From the sequence record NC_029091.1: a stretch of 64,000 nt of DNA; one strand, written 5' to 3'. Source of the DNA: Escherichia phage APCEc01. Shown piece by piece: positions 27,297 through 53,914 of the stretch (the first letter of the stretch is position 1; each line of letters starts with the position of its first letter). A program made the position numbers and the translations under genes. A model generated the notes under the pieces. It was given only the letters and a program-made list of their open reading frames with translations, was not told the DNA's origin and did not search any database.

Positions 27297-27520
27297 TGGC
27301 TAAATTGATTATAGAAGGGTCTGAAGATGTTTTAAAATGTTTTGCCGCCTGGTTTAGTTGCTCAGGCGAGCAATCATTCACTGAAGCATTTAGAATGGGT
27401 GATATTACCGGAAACTATCCGGCAACTGATATCACTGTACGTGGATATGGTATTAATGAGCCTATCCAATTGGTCGAATATGACCTTGCCACTGATGAGG
27501 AAATTCCTTATGTCGATTGA
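27296..27520 (+). CDS. hypothetical protein
   Basis: 74-aa ORF. Confidence 0.45.
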   Translation: MAKLIIEGSEDVLKCFAAWFSCSGEQSFTEAFRMGDITGNYPATDITVRGYGINEPIQLVEYDLATDEEIPYVD

Positions 27521-27776
27521 AGACATCAAAGGCTACAAGCCGCATACCGATGATAAAATCGGTAAAGTGAACGCTATTAAAGATGCAGAAGTCCGTCTTG
27601 GATTGTTGTTTGATGCTCTGATTGAAGAAGCATATATCTTGAAAGAAAATGAAACAGAGCAACAAACCAAAGAAGATATGGATGCAGTGCAGGCTCTTAA
27701 GTATGCTAAGCAACATCTAAAAGAAGCCAGCATGTGGGCGTGTCGTGCAGTATTTCGACCTGAGGAAAAATACTAA
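27510..27776 (+). CDS. hypothetical protein
   Basis: 88-aa product from internal ATG (MSIEDIKGYKPHTDDK...). Confidence 0.45.
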   Translation: MSIEDIKGYKPHTDDKIGKVNAIKDAEVRLGLLFDALIEEAYILKENETEQQTKEDMDAVQALKYAKQHLKEASMWACRAVFRPEEKY

Positions 27777-28052: not shown

Positions 28053-28511
28053 ATGACTATCAATTCAGACGTTTTTATCCGCCGTAATAAACTCCGTCGA
28101 ATCTTTGAAACGGAGTTCCGCAAAATAAATGCCGGTATAAAAGATGCTGCAAAGTCTCTTGGACTACCAGGCTTTCATATCAAGTATTCTCAACATCTCT
28201 TAGATCGTGCCATCCAGAGAGAAATAGATGAGAATTACGTTTTTGAATTATTTCATAAAGTAAAAAATCATGTTAAAGAAGTTGCAGAATTTTTATCAAT
28301 GCCGGCACGTCCAGATGTTGATGAAGATTTTGTCGAAGGTGTCGAATATCGCCCAGGCCGTTTAGAAATAACTGATGGAAATCTTTGGTTAGGACTTACA
28401 GTTTGTCGCGAAAATCCGGCATTCAAAATGAAGACTCTTCAATGCAGAATGGCTATTATTAACAATAAACGACTACCAGGAAAAGCTTCTAAAGCAGTGA
28501 TTAAAATCTAG
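28053..28511 (+). CDS. regB: site-specific endoribonuclease RegB
   Basis: 152 aa, MTINSDVFIRRNKLRRIFETEFRKIN...AIINNKRLPGKASKAVIKI, close to T4 RegB. Confidence 0.9.
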   Translation: MTINSDVFIRRNKLRRIFETEFRKINAGIKDAAKSLGLPGFHIKYSQHLLDRAIQREIDENYVFELFHKVKNHVKEVAEFLSMPARPDVDEDFVEGVEYRPGRLEITDGNLWLGLTVCRENPAFKMKTLQCRMAIINNKRLPGKASKAVIKI

Positions 28512-28519
28512 AGGTAAAC

Positions 28520-29062
28520 ATGAGAAAAGCACTACTCGCTGGTCTATTTGCTCTTTCATTATCAGCACATAGCTCCGAGCATACTTTTAGTAATGTCCAA
28601 CTCGATAACTTGAATTATGCTTATCAGTTTGGGGAACAGTTTTCTAAGGATGGAAAATTTAAAACGCATGAAAATATGCATAAGAAAGGACTTGGATACA
28701 TAATGGCCGCAATACTATGGCAGGAATCATCTGCCGGTATTAATCTTAAAGATAAGAAAGGTCACCATGCGTATGGAATGTTCCAAAATTATCTACCGAC
28801 AATGAGGGCAAGAATTAACCAGCTTGGTTATAATATGACTGATGCCCAAATTAAGAAAATGCTATCTAAGCGGTCTAATTCAGCCAGATGGGCTTATATC
28901 GAATTTTCTTATTGGTTAAATATACATAACGGGGATATAAGAAAAGCTATATCCTCATATAATGCGGGATGGAAGACAAGTGCCGGAAGTAAATATGCTT
29001 CTGAAGTCCTAGAAAAGGCTAATTACCTTAAATCAAATAAACTACTGGAAATAAAAGAATGA
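28520..29062 (+). CDS. secreted lytic-transglycosylase-like protein
   Basis: 180 aa, N-terminal signal peptide, WQESSAG...YGMFQ resembles the SLT catalytic motif. Confidence 0.55.
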   Translation: MRKALLAGLFALSLSAHSSEHTFSNVQLDNLNYAYQFGEQFSKDGKFKTHENMHKKGLGYIMAAILWQESSAGINLKDKKGHHAYGMFQNYLPTMRARINQLGYNMTDAQIKKMLSKRSNSARWAYIEFSYWLNIHNGDIRKAISSYNAGWKTSAGSKYASEVLEKANYLKSNKLLEIKE

Positions 29063-29406
29063 CCAAAATGTTGGCTTTAATAGTTGGCTTGGTTTCATTT
29101 AACGCTCTTGCTAATACTACATATACTGATGTAACGGAGTATACAAACAGAACGGCGTCTGATTACTGTGGTAAAAGTCAAGAGTGTAAAGTAGATTTTT
29201 CACAAAAATTGTTATATGCGTATAAAGACGGAGAAAAAGACGGGGCGTCTAGTAGGTTCAAGGCGTCTACCTTAATTAAAAGATACTATAAAAAATGGCA
29301 AATATTAGAATGCTCGGTGGCGGAACCTAAAGATAAGGCAGCATGCAATTCTATGGTGGACCGTCTAGTTGACTCTTATAATAGAGGACTTGCAGCAAGT
29401 GATTAA
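29059..29406 (+). CDS. small secreted protein (Vs-like by position)
   Basis: 115 aa with signal peptide, several Cys; adjacent to regB. Confidence 0.5.
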   Translation: MTKMLALIVGLVSFNALANTTYTDVTEYTNRTASDYCGKSQECKVDFSQKLLYAYKDGEKDGASSRFKASTLIKRYYKKWQILECSVAEPKDKAACNSMVDRLVDSYNRGLAASD

Positions 29407-29866
29407 AAACTATATCAAGGGCGATATTGTCGCCCTGTTTTCTAAAGGTAATAATATTGCTCATGGGTGTAATTGTTTTCATACAATGGGCGCGGGTGTG
29501 GCAGGACAATTAGCAAAGGCTTATCCAAAAATTCTGGAAGCCGATAAACTTCAAACCGAATTCGGAGACGAGTCTAAACTCGGGACTTATTCGGTTTATG
29601 AAAAATATTTTAAGACCCATAAAGCTTATTGCTTTAATCTTTATACACAGTTTGAGCCGGGACCTAATTTTGAGTACTCTGCTTTAATGAATTGTATAAT
29701 AGAATTAAATGAATTCGGAAAGAATAAGATAATAAAGCCTGTAATTTATATGCCAAGAATTGGTGCAGGTATTGGTGGTGGAAACTGGGATGTCATCGAA
29801 GAGATTTTAGATACGTATTCTACTAAACTAGAAATTGTGATTGTTGATTGGGAACCGTTATTATGA
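29399..29866 (+). CDS. macro-domain protein (ADP-ribose binding/processing)
   Basis: KGDIVALFSKGNNIAHGCNCFHTMGAGVAGQLAKAYP matches the macro-domain pattern GDI...N..N...GxGVxG.L..A; no in-frame ATG near the N-terminus, GTG at 29399 assumed. Confidence 0.5.
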   Translation: MIKNYIKGDIVALFSKGNNIAHGCNCFHTMGAGVAGQLAKAYPKILEADKLQTEFGDESKLGTYSVYEKYFKTHKAYCFNLYTQFEPGPNFEYSALMNCIIELNEFGKNKIIKPVIYMPRIGAGIGGGNWDVIEEILDTYSTKLEIVIVDWEPLL

Positions 29867-30075
29867 ATATACATTATCCACATCCATATGACCCAAAGAA
29901 TAAGGCAGTAATTATTCGTCAATGGGAACGCATTTGTCGTACCAAATGTCCAATTAATAGTCCACATGATGTAGATAAAGACTACATCGGAACATTCGTT
30001 GAATATACCTTTATTGATAAGAAAGGCCGTAAACAACATGTAGAAGAATATTGCTTAAAGGTGACATGGCTATGA
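29863..30075 (+). CDS. hypothetical protein
   Basis: 70 aa, start overlaps upstream stop. Confidence 0.45.
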   Translation: MNIHYPHPYDPKNKAVIIRQWERICRTKCPINSPHDVDKDYIGTFVEYTFIDKKGRKQHVEEYCLKVTWL

Positions 30076-30278
30076 GTCAAACAAAAATTCTTACAGGTGC
30101 TAAATGCGAAAAATGCGAATGGCCTGTAGTTTTTGCTTTATGCAATGACGAAATGGCTTGTGATTTTGATTATTGGTGTTACTGTTCGAACAAAGGTTGT
30201 AGCAATCATAAAGGTGAAGGGTTTTACTCAGGATTTTACCCTTACCCAGATTTCGTTAAAGAAGGTGAACCTAAATGA
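30072..30278 (+). CDS. small Cys-rich (zinc-binding) protein
   Basis: 68 aa with CEKCEW...CNDEMACDFDYWCYCSNKGC. Confidence 0.5.
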   Translation: MSQTKILTGAKCEKCEWPVVFALCNDEMACDFDYWCYCSNKGCSNHKGEGFYSGFYPYPDFVKEGEPK

Positions 30279-30457
30279 AATTGACTAAAGAAGAGAAAAC
30301 TAAACTGTTCGAACTTATCCATGACCTATTGGATGAGCAAGCAGCCACCAATGCGTACGATGAATATGCTCCTTTGACGGACGAAGAATATCAAGCATTG
30401 TTGGAATCATTTGACAGGAAAGAACAAGAACTCATTGACTATGTGAATTCACTATAA
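30275..30457 (+). CDS. hypothetical acidic protein
   Basis: 60-aa ORF. Confidence 0.4.
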   Translation: MKLTKEEKTKLFELIHDLLDEQAATNAYDEYAPLTDEEYQALLESFDRKEQELIDYVNSL

Positions 30458-30466
30458 GGGACTCTT

Positions 30467-31048
30467 ATGGCTAGTTTAATTTTTACCTATGCCGCTATGA
30501 ACGCTGGTAAGTCTGCTTCATTACTTACTGCTGCACATAACTATAAAGAACGTGGCATGGGTGTATTAGTTCTTAAACCGGCTATTGATACTCGCGATTC
30601 AAAAGGTGAAATAGTCTCTCGTATTGGTATTCGTCAGGATGCCAATATAATTACAAAAGACATGGATATCTTTGAATTTTATAAATGGGCTGCAGCACAA
30701 AAGGATATTCATTGTGTATTTGTTGACGAAGCTCAGTTCTTAACTACTGAAAAGGTGTATCAACTTAGTCGTATTGTTGACGTGTACAATGTGCCGGTAA
30801 TGGCATATGGACTACGAACAGATTTTAAAGGTAATCTATTTGAAGGTTCTCAAGCATTAATGGCTATTGCCGATAAGCTTGTTGAACTTAAAGGTGTCTG
30901 TCATTGTGGTAAAAAGGCCACAATGGTAGCTAGAGTCACGGAAGACGGACTTCCAATTACAGATGGCAGTCAAATTGAAATTGGTGATACCGATAGATAT
31001 GTGTCATTATGCCGGAAGCATTGGAATGATTTGACAGGGTTGTTATAA
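30467..31048 (+). CDS. tk: thymidine kinase
   Basis: 193 aa, P-loop MNAGKSASLL, VDEAQF, C-terminal CHCGKKAT...LCRKH zinc site. Confidence 0.92.
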   Translation: MASLIFTYAAMNAGKSASLLTAAHNYKERGMGVLVLKPAIDTRDSKGEIVSRIGIRQDANIITKDMDIFEFYKWAAAQKDIHCVFVDEAQFLTTEKVYQLSRIVDVYNVPVMAYGLRTDFKGNLFEGSQALMAIADKLVELKGVCHCGKKATMVARVTEDGLPITDGSQIEIGDTDRYVSLCRKHWNDLTGLL

Positions 31049-51557: not shown

Positions 51558-53242
51558 AATCATTTAAATTAAATCGTGTTCGTTATCAAAACATCATGTC
51601 GGTAGGTGGGAATCCTATCGATATCCAATTAGATAAAGTCCAAAAGACCTTAATCACCGGTAAAAATGGCGGTGGTAAATCTACGATGTTAGAAGCCATT
51701 ACTTTCGGACTTTTCGGTAAACCATTTCGTGATGTTAAGAAAGGACAAATCATTAATAGCACGAACAAGAAAGAGCTCTTAGTTGAGCTTTGGATGGAAT
51801 TCGATGATAAAAAATACTTCATTAGACGCGGCCAAAAGCCCAATATTTTCGAAATCTCCGTTGACGGTGTTCGTCTCGATGAATCTGCCAGCAGTCGTGA
51901 CTTCCAAGAAGAATTTGAACGTAGCATCGGAATGTCATACGCGTCTTTTAAACAGATCGTTGTGCTTGGGACGGCAGGGTATACCCCTTTCATGGCTCTT
52001 AGCACCCCTGCTCGTAGAAAACTTGTCGAAGACCTTTTAGAAGTCGGCACACTCGCTGAAATGGATAAAATCAATAAGTCTCAAGTTCGAGAACTTAATT
52101 CCCAGGGACAAGTTCTCGATGCTAAGAAAGATGGTGTTATCCAACAAATTAAGATTTATAACGAGAATATCGAACGTCAAAAGAAATTATCTGGTGATAA
52201 TGTAGCGCGTCTACAGAATATGTATGACGACCTAGCCAAAGAAGCTCGTTCATTAAAAGCAGAAATCGAAGAAGCTAATGAGCGACTACTTAATATCGTT
52301 CTTGATGAAGACCCTACTGAGGCATTCAACAAGATAGGACAAGAAGCATTCTTGATTAAATCTAAAATCGACTCATACAACAAAGTTATTAAGATGTATC
52401 ACGATGGCGGTACATGTCCTACTTGCGCATCACAGTTGCACCAGGGTGACCCTATTGTCTCTAAGATTACCGATAAGCTTCACGAATGTAATCACTCATT
52501 CGAGCAACTTACATGTCACAGAGATAACCTGAGTGTCCTAGTGGACGAATATAGAGCTAATGTTAAGACTAAACAGGACCTTGCATCTGATATTCGTACC
52601 AAGAAACAAGCAATGATTGCCACTATTGATAAAGCTAAGAAAGTTAAAGCTGCAATAGAACAAGCCTCGGCGGAATTTATCGACCATGCCGATGAGATAG
52701 CTTTGCTTCAAAAAGAACTTGATAAAATCATTAAAACAAAATCAGATATCGTTCTTGAAAAATACCATCGTGGTATTATTACAGATATGTTAAAAGATTC
52801 TGGTATTAAAGGTGCTATCATTAAAAAATATGTGCCTCTGTTCAACAAGCAGATTAACCATTATCTTAAAATCATGGAAGCCGATTACGTGTTTTCTATT
52901 GATGAAGAATTCAATGAATCTATAAAATCACGTGGCCGTGAAGATTTTAGTTATGCTTCATTTAGTCAAGGTGAAAAGGCACGTATCGATATCGCATTGT
53001 TGTTTACATGGCGAGATATTGCTGAAAAGGTCTCTGGTGTTAAAATCAACACTCTGATTCTTGATGAGGTTTTTGATGGGGCAGTTGATTCTGAAGCTGT
53101 TAAGGCTATAGATACCATTCTTGGAAGTTTACAAAATACTAACGTGTTCATTATTTCTCATAGGGACCATGACCCTCAACGTTATGGACAACATTTGCAA
53201 ATGAGCAAAGTTGGACGATTTACTGTAATGACTGTTTCATAA
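51554..53242 (+). CDS. 46: recombination ATPase subunit gp46 (Rad50/SbcC-like)
   Basis: 562 aa, Walker A GKNGGGKST, central coiled coil with CPTC zinc hook, C-terminal LILDEVFDG. Confidence 0.93.
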   Translation: MKSFKLNRVRYQNIMSVGGNPIDIQLDKVQKTLITGKNGGGKSTMLEAITFGLFGKPFRDVKKGQIINSTNKKELLVELWMEFDDKKYFIRRGQKPNIFEISVDGVRLDESASSRDFQEEFERSIGMSYASFKQIVVLGTAGYTPFMALSTPARRKLVEDLLEVGTLAEMDKINKSQVRELNSQGQVLDAKKDGVIQQIKIYNENIERQKKLSGDNVARLQNMYDDLAKEARSLKAEIEEANERLLNIVLDEDPTEAFNKIGQEAFLIKSKIDSYNKVIKMYHDGGTCPTCASQLHQGDPIVSKITDKLHECNHSFEQLTCHRDNLSVLVDEYRANVKTKQDLASDIRTKKQAMIATIDKAKKVKAAIEQASAEFIDHADEIALLQKELDKIIKTKSDIVLEKYHRGIITDMLKDSGIKGAIIKKYVPLFNKQINHYLKIMEADYVFSIDEEFNESIKSRGREDFSYASFSQGEKARIDIALLFTWRDIAEKVSGVKINTLILDEVFDGAVDSEAVKAIDTILGSLQNTNVFIISHRDHDPQRYGQHLQMSKVGRFTVMTVS

Positions 53243-53270
53243 ACGCTTTAACACGATGTGGTTATAATGA
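53243..53270 (+). promoter_or_regulatory. MotA-dependent middle promoter candidate
   Basis: AAACGCTTTA at 53241-53250, 12 nt, TATAAT at 53263-53268; inverted repeat GATGTGGT/ACCACATC around the -10. Confidence 0.5.
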
Positions 53271-53296
53271 CCACATCAAATTAAATGGAGAACAAC

Positions 53297-53485
53297 ATGG
53301 AGTATTCAACTGGACAACATCTTCTCGTTGTCCCTGAAATTAAAAAATATGTTTTGACCAATACGTTTTCAGGTGAAGAACATATTGTTACTGAACAAAT
53401 GCTCAAATCTGCTTTTAAAGATGAGTATAATAAAATAATGTCTAATCGCAATTCCGCATGGACAGTTACCGACTTCTACGAATAA
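53297..53485 (+). CDS. hypothetical protein
   Basis: 62-aa product from ATG after GGAG. Confidence 0.45.
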   Translation: MEYSTGQHLLVVPEIKKYVLTNTFSGEEHIVTEQMLKSAFKDEYNKIMSNRNSAWTVTDFYE

Positions 53486-53497
53486 GAGAGAAATAAT

Positions 53498-53914
53498 ATG
53501 TTTACTACTGCTAAAGGTTTTACCGCTGCTGATCTGAAAGTTACTTCTATCCGTACTGACGCTAACCCGCATAACCATAATCGTGTTCGTAAAGCATGGG
53601 TCCTGCATTGTGATGACGCAAGTGCTAAAAAACTCCAATCTTTGCCACAAGAAACTCGTTTTATGATTTATGGTTTTATTGATAACGATGTGTCTGATAT
53701 GTGGATTCATTTGATGCGTAAGCACTATAAAGATTCTATCGAAGCAGGTGCTAAAATCGTTCTTGATAAAGACGGTTCTGAACGCCTTGAAGATTTTTAC
53801 TGTGTTGATGCCGACGAACAACTAATTGCAGCTGGCGAAATTGTTGCTTCTAAAATTCCAGAATATATTGAATCACTGCCTGAAGCTATTAAAAAGCAGA
53901 TTGTTGCTGCATAA
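53498..53914 (+). CDS. rpbA: RNA-polymerase-binding protein RpbA (by position)
   Basis: 138-aa ORF immediately upstream of gene 45. Confidence 0.6.
   Translation: MFTTAKGFTAADLKVTSIRTDANPHNHNRVRKAWVLHCDDASAKKLQSLPQETRFMIYGFIDNDVSDMWIHLMRKHYKDSIEAGAKIVLDKDGSERLEDFYCVDADEQLIAAGEIVASKIPEYIESLPEAIKKQIVAA

What the first reader, a model, noticed from the sequence alone, without database searches (positions are those of the whole stretch)
29399..29866. Macro-domain protein with no ATG start
The sequence GDIVALFSKGNNIAHGCNCFHTMGAGVAGQLAKAY fits the macro-domain ADP-ribose-binding loops. There is no in-frame ATG until residue 38 of the ORF, so the gene likely uses GTG at 29399 or TTG, or is translationally coupled to the upstream secreted-protein gene. 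A macro domain in an early region could reverse host ADP-ribosylation.
Basis: partly seen in the sequence, partly recalled or inferred. Interest (0 to 1): 0.5.

Follow-up and report, generated by a model that had tools for sequence, protein, structure and literature searches.

The report
T4 tk.4 (AdfM) macrodomain, GTG start
This is the ordinary, already-named T4-phage gene tk.4 (adfM), a small macrodomain enzyme that T4 needs to resist the bacterial DNA-ADP-ribosylating defence DarTG2; in this phage it simply starts with GTG where T4 has ATG.

Summary
Window 29399..29866 (+) encodes a 155-aa macrodomain protein (Pfam Macro 28.4 bits, cutoff 22; AlphaFold pLDDT 96; best solved-structure matches TARG1, Poa1p, BT1257, DarG, SCO6735).

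The window is a T4-like phage, 99.9% identical to Shigella phage JK45. The gene is the orthologue of T4 tk.4: 85% protein identity and the same position between vs and tk.3.

The start is GTG 29399.
- T4 and 30 of 34 related loci have ATG at exactly this codon.
- Two 98%-identical relatives have an in-frame TAG one codon upstream.
- GenBank annotators chose the same start.
- It overlaps the vs stop (GTGATTAA), in a chain of genes otherwise joined by ATGA overlaps.

The function is already published. A T4 tk.4 knockout becomes sensitive to DarTG2, and the gene was renamed adfM (bioRxiv 2025).

One nuance. The family's invariant Gln84 sits where DarG and TARG1 have their catalytic lysine. The same is true of Streptomyces SCO6735, which cleaves thymidine-linked ADP-ribose from DNA. 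So this is a Gln-type relative, not a DarG copy like PhiKZ AdfM.

Already known, low interest.

The parts
29399..29866 (+). tk.4 / adfM coding sequence, 155 codons plus TGA stop; a single macrodomain
   Evidence: ORF list. Same coordinates annotated as 'macro domain-containing protein' in JK45. Pfam Macro above its cutoff. 85% identical to T4 Tk.4. AlphaFold model pLDDT 96.3.
29399..29401 (+). GTG start codon
   Evidence: T4 has ATG at the homologous codon. 30 ATG and 4 GTG among 34 related loci. In L003 and L004 an in-frame stop lies one codon upstream. JK45 and SA79RD carry the identical GTG and are annotated from it.
29384..29388 (+). Shine-Dalgarno-like GAGGA, 10 nt before the GTG, inside the 3' end of vs
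   Evidence: Read from the sequence. T4 has GAGGA 11 nt before its ATG.
29399..29406 (+). GTGATTAA junction: the tk.4 start overlaps the vs stop (TAA 29404-29406) by 8 nt
   Evidence: The neighbouring junctions vs.1/vs, tk.4/tk.3, tk.3/next and next/tk.2-like are all ATGA overlaps. The T4 vs/tk.4 junction is ATGA.
29462..29506 (+). Loop 1 of the ADP-ribose pocket: H22-G-C-N25-C-F-H-T-M-G-A-G-V-A-G36
   Evidence: H22, G23, N25, M30 and G31 are at least 90% conserved; C26 and G33 are invariant. N25 is present in 167 of 169 family members. It aligns with the TVN...GVMGxG loop of DarG and PhiKZ gp104.
29636..29650 (+). N80-L-Y82-T83-Q84 at the end of a beta strand; Q84 occupies the catalytic-lysine position of TARG1 and DarG
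   Evidence: N80, Y82 and Q84 are invariant in 89 sequences. Q is present in 167 of 169. Q84 aligns with the lysine of TaqDarG 'PTK', of PhiKZ gp104 'PTK' and of TARG1 'ITK'. The model strand spans 75-84.
29753..29788 (+). Loop 2, the diphosphate-binding loop: P119-R-I-G-A-G-I-G-G-G-N-W130
   Evidence: P119, I121, G122 and G124 are invariant. It aligns with PRIGCGL..W of TARG1, BT1257 and SCO6735.
29059..29406 (+). vs (valyl-tRNA synthetase modifier), the upstream gene whose end overlaps the tk.4 start
   Evidence: GenBank annotation of JK45. phrog_1256 at 1.8e-35.
29863..30075 (+). tk.3-like gene (DUF7202); its ATG overlaps the tk.4 stop (ATGA)
   Evidence: Pfam DUF7202 at 1.6e-38. Junction.

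Best explanation
Window 29399-29866 is the orthologue of bacteriophage T4 gene tk.4, recently renamed adfM (anti-DarT factor, macrodomain). It lies in the prereplicative regB - vs.1 - vs - tk.4 - tk.3 - tk cluster of a T4-like phage. Translation starts at GTG 29399, most likely helped by ribosomes finishing vs 5 nt downstream. The product is a 155-aa stand-alone macrodomain of the TARG1/DarG/SCO6735/Poa1p (ALC1-like) class. Most likely mechanism: it binds ADP-ribose attached by the host toxin DarT2 to N3 of thymidine in single-stranded phage DNA and hydrolyses the bond, so replication can proceed. Chemistry: it has Gln84, held by Asn25, where DarG and TARG1 have the catalytic lysine. It would therefore work like Streptomyces SCO6735 (glutamine positions the distal ribose, water-mediated cleavage), not like DarG. 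Shown here: gene identity, start codon, fold, conserved residues. Shown in the literature: T4 tk.4 deletion is sensitive to DarTG2; SCO6735 biochemistry. Inferred: that this 85%-identical allele does the same, and that it acts by hydrolysis rather than binding.
For: Identity. The window is 99.9% identical to Shigella phage JK45 across 28500-30500, and the region is annotated regB / vs.1 / vs / macro domain protein / ... / tk. The protein is 85% identical over its full length to T4 Tk.4.

Start codon., as detailed under the parts.

Fold. AlphaFold pLDDT 96.3, pTM 0.91. Foldseek against PDB gives TARG1 2e-10, Poa1p 6e-10, BT1257 2e-9, TaqDarG 4e-8, MtbDarG 1e-7 and SCO6735 1e-6, all at probability 1.00.

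Active site. Q84 aligns with DarG K80, TARG1 K84 and the PhiKZ 'PTK' lysine in three HMM-based alignments. Q is found in 167 of 169 family members and N25 in 167 of 169.

Function. A T4 transposon screen on a DarTG2 host gave tk.4 as the single significant hit, and a clean tk.4 knockout sensitised T4 to DarTG2 (bioRxiv 10.1101/2025.11.20.689424). T4 lacking adfA and adfN stays DarTG2-resistant, so another factor was expected (PMC11825919).

Gln-type chemistry. SCO6735 has Gln85 at the Lys80/Lys84 position, cleaves thymidine-linked ADP-ribose from DNA, and its Q85A and N27S mutants are dead or nearly dead (PMC9411070).
Against: No biochemistry exists for T4 Tk.4 or for this allele. The preprint itself only says enzymatic removal 'seems likely', and it is a preprint. 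The protein lacks the catalytic lysine of DarG. The residue equivalence Q84 = K80/K84 = SCO6735 Q85 rests on HMM alignments and transitivity. A small MAFFT alignment shifted this strand by two residues, and I could not obtain a direct residue-level superposition with 5E3B. SCO6735 Q85A still inhibits DarT by binding, so a non-catalytic contribution is possible. Translational coupling to vs is inferred from geometry only.
Confidence: 0.8

Rival explanations
1. It is mainly a small-molecule ADP-ribose-derivative enzyme (ADP-ribose-1''-phosphate phosphatase like yeast Poa1p, or O-acetyl-ADP-ribose deacetylase), as the database labels 'phosphatase' and 'O-acetyl-ADP-ribose deacetylase' imply.
For: PHROG 335 is labelled 'phosphatase' (1.3e-66), and many RefSeq records call the gene 'phosphatase'. 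Poa1p is among the best sequence and fold matches. In the alignment, H22 aligns with the His and T29 with the Ser that were mutated in the Poa1p structures 6lfs and 6lft.
Against: These labels are transferred from distant homologues and were not tested. The position of Poa1p F152 (mutated in 6lfu) is G126 here. T4 genetics give a specific DNA-defence phenotype. TARG1-class macrodomains commonly show such side activities in vitro without that being their role.
Confidence: 0.08
2. It protects without catalysis, either by binding and blocking DarT2 itself or by masking ADP-ribosylated DNA.
For: The catalytic lysine is absent. Catalytically dead SCO6735 Q85A still inhibits DarT in vitro, more strongly than DarG or TARG1.
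Against: There is no DarT-binding domain. The 155 aa match only positions 4-145 of the 329-position DarG profile. Strict conservation of N25, T83 and Q84, the residues required for SCO6735 catalysis, argues for an enzyme.
Confidence: 0.08
3. Its main substrate is something other than DarT2-modified DNA. Candidates are ADP-ribosylated RNA (uracil-linked), protein ADP-ribosylation by host defence transferases, or marks written by the phage's own Alt/ModA/ModB enzymes.
For: SCO6735 and TARG1 also remove uracil-linked ADP-ribose from RNA (PMC13036486). T4-like phages encode their own ADP-ribosyltransferases (established knowledge). Homologues occur in about 2,800 phage records across many hosts, broader than one defence system might explain.
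Against: The only phenotype on record is DarTG2 sensitivity. Macrodomains of this class are not known to cleave the arginine-linked ADP-ribose made by Alt and Mod (own knowledge). Extra substrates would add to the DarTG2 role rather than replace it.
Confidence: 0.1
4. The start is not GTG 29399. Translation would begin at TTG 29369 or TTG 29390, or at the first ATG (29486), giving a longer or a truncated protein.
For: The frame is open from 29369 in this window, and both TTGs are in frame.
Against: L003 and L004 (98% identical) have TAG between the TTG and the GTG. TTG 29390 lies 1 nt after the GAGGA. In T4 and eight other loci an in-frame stop directly precedes the homologous ATG. Starting at ATG 29486 would delete strands 1 and 2 and the conserved H22-N25.
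Confidence: 0.03

Closest known systems
Bacteriophage T4 Tk.4 = AdfM (anti-DarT factor macrodomain; bioRxiv 10.1101/2025.11.20.689424)
   Same: 85% protein identity over all 155 residues. Same length. Same position between vs and tk.3 in the regB-tk cluster. Same conserved motifs.
   Different: GTG instead of ATG. A 1-nt indel in the end of vs turns the ATGA junction into an 8-nt GTGATTAA overlap. 15% amino-acid divergence. This allele is shared by JK45-like Tequatrovirus and by a phage filed under Mosigvirus.
Streptomyces coelicolor SCO6735 and Bacteroides BT1257 (Gln-type ALC1-like macrodomains; PDB 5E3B, 2FG1)
   Same: Stand-alone macrodomain of about 150-180 aa. Gln at the catalytic-Lys position and Asn in loop 1. 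A PRIGxGxxGGxW loop. SCO6735 cleaves thymidine-linked ADP-ribose on DNA.
   Different: Only about 22-28% identity. These are bacterial chromosomal genes, not phage counter-defence genes. The Tk.4 family has its own invariant HGCNC and NxYTQ motifs.
DarG antitoxin of DarTG2 (PDB 5M31, 5M3I, 7OMU) and PhiKZ gp104 AdfM (PMC13309987)
   Same: Same fold and class. Same presumed substrate, DarT2-made ADP-ribosyl-thymidine. Same biological logic: an antitoxin-like eraser carried by a phage.
   Different: DarG and PhiKZ gp104 have the 'PTK' catalytic lysine; this protein has Gln. DarG profile score is 36 bits here against 133 bits for PhiKZ gp104. NCBIfam DarG scores 33 bits against a cutoff of 250. 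There is no C-terminal DarT-binding domain and no adjacent darT.
Human TARG1 (OARD1) and yeast Poa1p
   Same: Best structural matches. Shared loop 1 and loop 2.
   Different: TARG1's K84/D125 dyad is Q84/G126 here. Poa1p's F152 position is G126.

Membership tests
Macro domain (Pfam PF01661) | Profile match above the curated gathering score | tested here: met
   28.4 bits against a cutoff of 22, residues 22-136 on profile positions 2-117 of 118.
Macro domain (Pfam PF01661) | Three-layer alpha/beta/alpha fold with a mixed sheet, matching solved macrodomains | tested here: met
   AlphaFold pLDDT 96.3. Foldseek probability 1.00 to TARG1, Poa1p, BT1257, DarG, SCO6735 and viral macrodomains.
Macro domain (Pfam PF01661) | Glycine-rich ADP-ribose and diphosphate-binding loops | tested here: met
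   M30-G-A-G33 and P119-x-I-G-x-G-x-G-G-G128 are conserved or invariant.
T4 Tk.4 / AdfM orthologous group | Full-length high sequence identity to T4 Tk.4 | tested here: met
   85% over 155 aa.
T4 Tk.4 / AdfM orthologous group | Conserved position between vs and tk.3/tk in the prereplicative cluster | tested here: met
   Same gene order in the window, JK45, SA79RD and T4.
T4 Tk.4 / AdfM orthologous group | Required for phage growth on a DarTG2-expressing host | not testable with these tools
   Reported for T4 only. Needs a plaque assay with a deletion of 29399-29866.
DarG (DarTG2 antitoxin) | Catalytic lysine (TaqDarG K80) at the end of the strand preceding the substrate loop | tested here: not met
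   Gln84 aligns with that lysine. Q in 167 of 169 family members.
DarG (DarTG2 antitoxin) | C-terminal DarT-binding domain; full-length match to the DarG equivalog model | tested here: not met
   Only 155 aa. Matches positions 4-145 of the 329-position PADLOC DarG model. NCBIfam NF048014 scores 33.3 bits against a cutoff of 250.
DarG (DarTG2 antitoxin) | Encoded next to a darT toxin gene | tested here: not met
   The neighbours are vs and tk.3.
SCO6735/BT1257-type (Gln-type) ALC1-like macrodomain | Glutamine replacing the catalytic lysine, positioned by a loop-1 asparagine | tested here: met
   Q84 and N25 are conserved. Equivalence comes from TARG1, DarG and BT1257 alignments plus the paper's statement that Gln85 = Lys80/Lys84 and that Asn27 holds Gln85. 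This is indirect; no direct superposition was made.
SCO6735/BT1257-type (Gln-type) ALC1-like macrodomain | Hydrolysis of thymidine-linked ADP-ribose on single-stranded DNA | not testable with these tools
   Needs an in vitro gel-shift de-ADP-ribosylation assay.
Poa1p-like ADP-ribose-1''-phosphate phosphatase | Residues probed in the Poa1p structures (H23, S30, F152) | tested here: inconclusive
   In the alignment H22 matches the His, T29 aligns with the Ser and G126 replaces the Phe. Numbering was inferred from the mutant entries 6lfs, 6lft and 6lfu.

The most novel reading that the evidence does not exclude
The T4-type 'AdfM' and the PhiKZ-type 'AdfM' are two independently recruited macrodomain lineages with different chemistry. 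PhiKZ gp104 is a near-copy of the DarG macrodomain with the catalytic lysine. The Tk.4 family, present in about 2,800 phage genomes, is a Gln-type enzyme like SCO6735. It may therefore have a broader or different substrate range, for example uracil-linked ADP-ribose on RNA, or direct inhibition of DarT2. A lesser addition: in this clade the weak GTG start and a Shine-Dalgarno-pairing stem may make tk.4 expression depend on translation of vs.
Probability: 0.45. Interest if true: 0.3.

Novelty: already known. Interest (0 to 1): 0.12.

Why it matters
It matters little as a discovery. The gene is annotated as a macro-domain protein in GenBank, lies in one of the best-studied phage genomes, and has a published counter-defence phenotype. 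Macrodomains occur in about 41% of myoviruses (PMC9503650).

Three modest points of value remain.
- The start codon is now firmly fixed by comparative evidence.
- The database label 'phosphatase' is probably misleading.
- The Tk.4 family has glutamine, not lysine, at the catalytic position. Any biochemical follow-up of T4 AdfM should therefore use SCO6735 rather than DarG as its mechanistic model.

Tried and rejected
TTG starts at 29369 and 29390 were rejected. Close relatives have an in-frame TAG between them and the GTG, and TTG 29390 sits 1 nt after the GAGGA.

ATG 29486 as the start was rejected. It would remove two strands and the conserved H22-N25.

DarG membership was rejected on three tested features.

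Intrinsic terminator or regulatory hairpin at 29418-29436. The consensus scan found 3 terminator-like sites against 1.7 +/- 1.2 expected. The local fold has z = -2.5. The hairpin is shared with T4, but the Shine-Dalgarno-pairing extension is not, and more distant relatives have no structure. There is no covariation to count, so it is kept only as a passing note.

A 7-sequence MAFFT alignment placed the NLYTQ strand two residues out of register with DarG. I relied instead on the three concordant HMM and profile alignments.

An attempt to get a direct residue alignment to SCO6735 from the PDB sequence search returned only its C-terminal loop-2 segment.

The sigma-70 promoter scan was uninformative: 8 found against 10.3 expected.

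I did not scan bacterial genomes or metagenomes for DarT-linked relatives.

Full report
**What is in the sequence**

On the + strand a reading frame opens after TAG 29366-29368 and closes with TGA 29864-29866. In-frame candidate starts are TTG 29369, TTG 29390 and GTG 29399. The first ATG is at 29486. That is codon 30 counted from the GTG, or codon 40 from the first possible start, not 38.

**What the window is**

Megablast of 28500-30500 against phage genomes gives 99.9% identity over the whole query to Shigella phage JK45 (Tequatrovirus), with 656 matching records. In JK45 the region is annotated regB, vs.1 (mislabelled endoribonuclease), vs (valyl-tRNA synthetase modifier), 'macro domain-containing protein', three small ORFs, then thymidine kinase. 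The macro-domain CDS has exactly the coordinates 29399-29866. The 'secreted-protein gene' upstream is therefore vs (also phrog_1256, 1.8e-35). In an evolved T4 record the homologous 155-codon gene sits between vs and tk.3, and it is 85% identical at the protein level. This is T4 gene tk.4.

**Macro domain**

- Pfam Macro scores 28.4 bits against a gathering score of 22.
- PDB sequence search finds BT1257 (8e-11), Poa1p, SCO6735, TaqDarG and TARG1.
- A profile of 89 family members raises these to 8e-19 (BT1257), 6e-17 (TARG1), 1.5e-15 (SCO6735), 1e-13 (MtbDarG) and 1.3e-13 (Poa1p).
- The AlphaFold model built from that alignment has mean pLDDT 96.3 and pTM 0.91.
- Its best Foldseek matches among solved structures are TARG1, Poa1p, BT1257, DarG and SCO6735, followed by viral macrodomains.

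**Start codon**

In T4 the gene begins ATGATTGTAAAATATATCAAGGGCGAT. The ATG overlaps the TGA of vs in an ATGA junction. The window reads GTGATTAAAAACTATATCAAGGGCGAT at the homologous place.

- Among 34 IMG/VR loci whose protein match starts at residue 1, the homologous codon is ATG in 30 and GTG in 4. Three of the four belong to the window's own allele; one is an independent case, L012.
- In nine loci an in-frame stop directly precedes the start.
- In L003 and L004, which are 98% identical to the window, a TAG lies one codon upstream of the GTG and there is no alternative start. The TTG options are impossible there.
- JK45 and SA79RD have the identical GTG context and are annotated from it.
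- A GAGGA lies 10 nt upstream (11 nt in T4).
- Starting at the first ATG would delete strands 1 and 2 and the conserved H22-G-C-N25.

I regard GTG 29399 as settled by comparative evidence. Direct protein evidence is still missing.

**Coupling to vs**

The genes vs.1/vs, tk.4/tk.3, tk.3/next and next/tk.2-like all overlap by ATGA. Only vs/tk.4 differs, with GTGATTAA, an 8-nt overlap. Compared with T4, a 1-nt indel in the end of vs and an A-to-G change remodelled an ancestral ATGA junction. Ribosomes finishing vs stop 5 nt past the GTG, so termination-reinitiation is plausible. This step is an inference.

**Function**

A 2025 preprint screened a T4 transposon library on a DarTG2-expressing host. 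It found tk.4 as the single significant hit and showed that a clean knockout sensitises T4 to DarTG2. The authors renamed the gene adfM and proposed enzymatic removal of ADP-ribose from DNA by analogy with DarG (10.1101/2025.11.20.689424). Earlier work had shown that T4 lacking adfA and adfN is still DarTG2-resistant, which predicted another factor (PMC11825919). The name AdfM was also given independently to PhiKZ gp104. That protein removes DarT2-made ADP-ribose from an oligonucleotide in vitro (PMC13309987).

**A nuance on mechanism**

The Tk.4 family has invariant N80, Y82 and Q84, and nearly invariant H22, G23, N25 and T83. In 169 sequences Q84 occurs 167 times and N25 167 times. Three HMM-based alignments put Q84 opposite a catalytic lysine:

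- TaqDarG, 'FPTK'
- PhiKZ gp104, 'FPTK'
- TARG1, 'ITK', K84

TARG1's D125 position is G126 here. SCO6735 of Streptomyces coelicolor has Gln85 at this same position and cleaves thymidine-linked ADP-ribose from DNA. It loses all activity as Q85A or Q85E and almost all as N27S, and it is proposed to use a water-mediated mechanism (PMC9411070).

This phage protein therefore looks like a Gln-type enzyme. It is only a distant relative of DarG:

- PADLOC DarG scores 36 bits here against 133 bits for PhiKZ gp104.
- The NCBIfam DarG equivalog scores 33 bits against a cutoff of 250.
- The match covers only the macro part of the DarG profile.
- There is no DarT-binding domain and no neighbouring darT.

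I file it as a Tk.4/AdfM orthologue that works like SCO6735 and DarG, not as a DarG family member. The equivalence with SCO6735 Q85 is indirect: it runs through TARG1, DarG and BT1257. A small MAFFT alignment disagreed by two residues.

**Rivals**

- The database label 'phosphatase' (phrog_335) comes from Poa1p similarity. One of three probed Poa1p residues is not conserved.
- A non-catalytic blocking role cannot be excluded, because SCO6735 Q85A still inhibits DarT.
- Other substrates such as uracil-linked ADP-ribose on RNA are possible additions.

**Novelty**

Already known. Homologues occur in 2,798 phage records, and macrodomains are reported in about 41% of myoviruses. Interest is low. 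The only modest additions here are the firm start-codon assignment and the Gln-for-Lys observation.

Noticed in passing
window 29059-29406 (+), first ~20 codons: The vs product begins MTKMLALIVGLVSFNALANT, which looks like a Sec-type signal peptide. That is odd for a protein named as a modifier of the cytoplasmic valyl-tRNA synthetase. The HIDEN-SEQ preprint reports vs as the gene most strongly depleted in M9 glucose versus LB. No Pfam or NCBIfam family matches it.
   Followed up: partly
window 28520-29062 (+): vs.1 also has a signal-peptide-like N-terminus (MRKALLAGLFALSLSAHS). It has a sub-threshold SLT lytic-transglycosylase match of 18.8 bits against a cutoff of 21.3. JK45 mislabels it 'endoribonuclease'.
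   Followed up: no
window 29418-29436 (+), with 29382-29389 pairing to 29437-29444: An 8-bp GC-rich hairpin (AGGGCGAU AUU GUCGCCCU) followed by GUUUUCU lies 19 nt inside tk.4. In the predicted fold the Shine-Dalgarno region pairs with the U-rich tail, enclosing the GTG (MFE -19.1 kcal/mol, z -2.5). T4 shares the hairpin but not the Shine-Dalgarno pairing, and more distant relatives have neither.
   Followed up: partly
window 27510-27776 (+): This is the homologue of T4 vs.4; SA79RD's note says 'Vs.4 conserved hypothetical protein', and it matches phrog_717. From my own knowledge T4 Vs.4 is the anti-CBASS sponge Acb2. If so, this cluster would hold at least two counter-defence genes within 2 kb.
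   Followed up: no
window 29681-29705 (+), inside tk.4: GCTT...(15 nt)...TAGAAT. The identical stretch is annotated in SA79RD as similar to a T4 middle (MotA-dependent) promoter with one mismatch. It could drive tk.3-tk independently of tk.4.
   Followed up: no
L051 (OL960576.1) versus L001 (MK962757.1) versus L002 (T4): The same tk.4 allele (98.7-100% identical, GTG start) occurs in a phage filed under Mosigvirus (SA79RD) and in Tequatrovirus JK45. T4 itself is only 85% identical. This suggests allele exchange among T-even phages, or inconsistent taxonomy.
   Followed up: no
H34, OL964745.1 'Escherichia phage T4', record positions 53142-53586: In this T4 record the tk.4 match is split into two pieces and annotated as two 'macro domain-containing proteins'. 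That suggests a frameshift or assembly error in one T4 stock. T4 sublines also differ by a Ser36Gly change in tk.4 (PMC8573959).
   Followed up: no
family alignment of 169 sequences: One family member has Lys instead of Gln at position 84, which is the DarG/TARG1 state. I did not identify which sequence it is.
   Followed up: no
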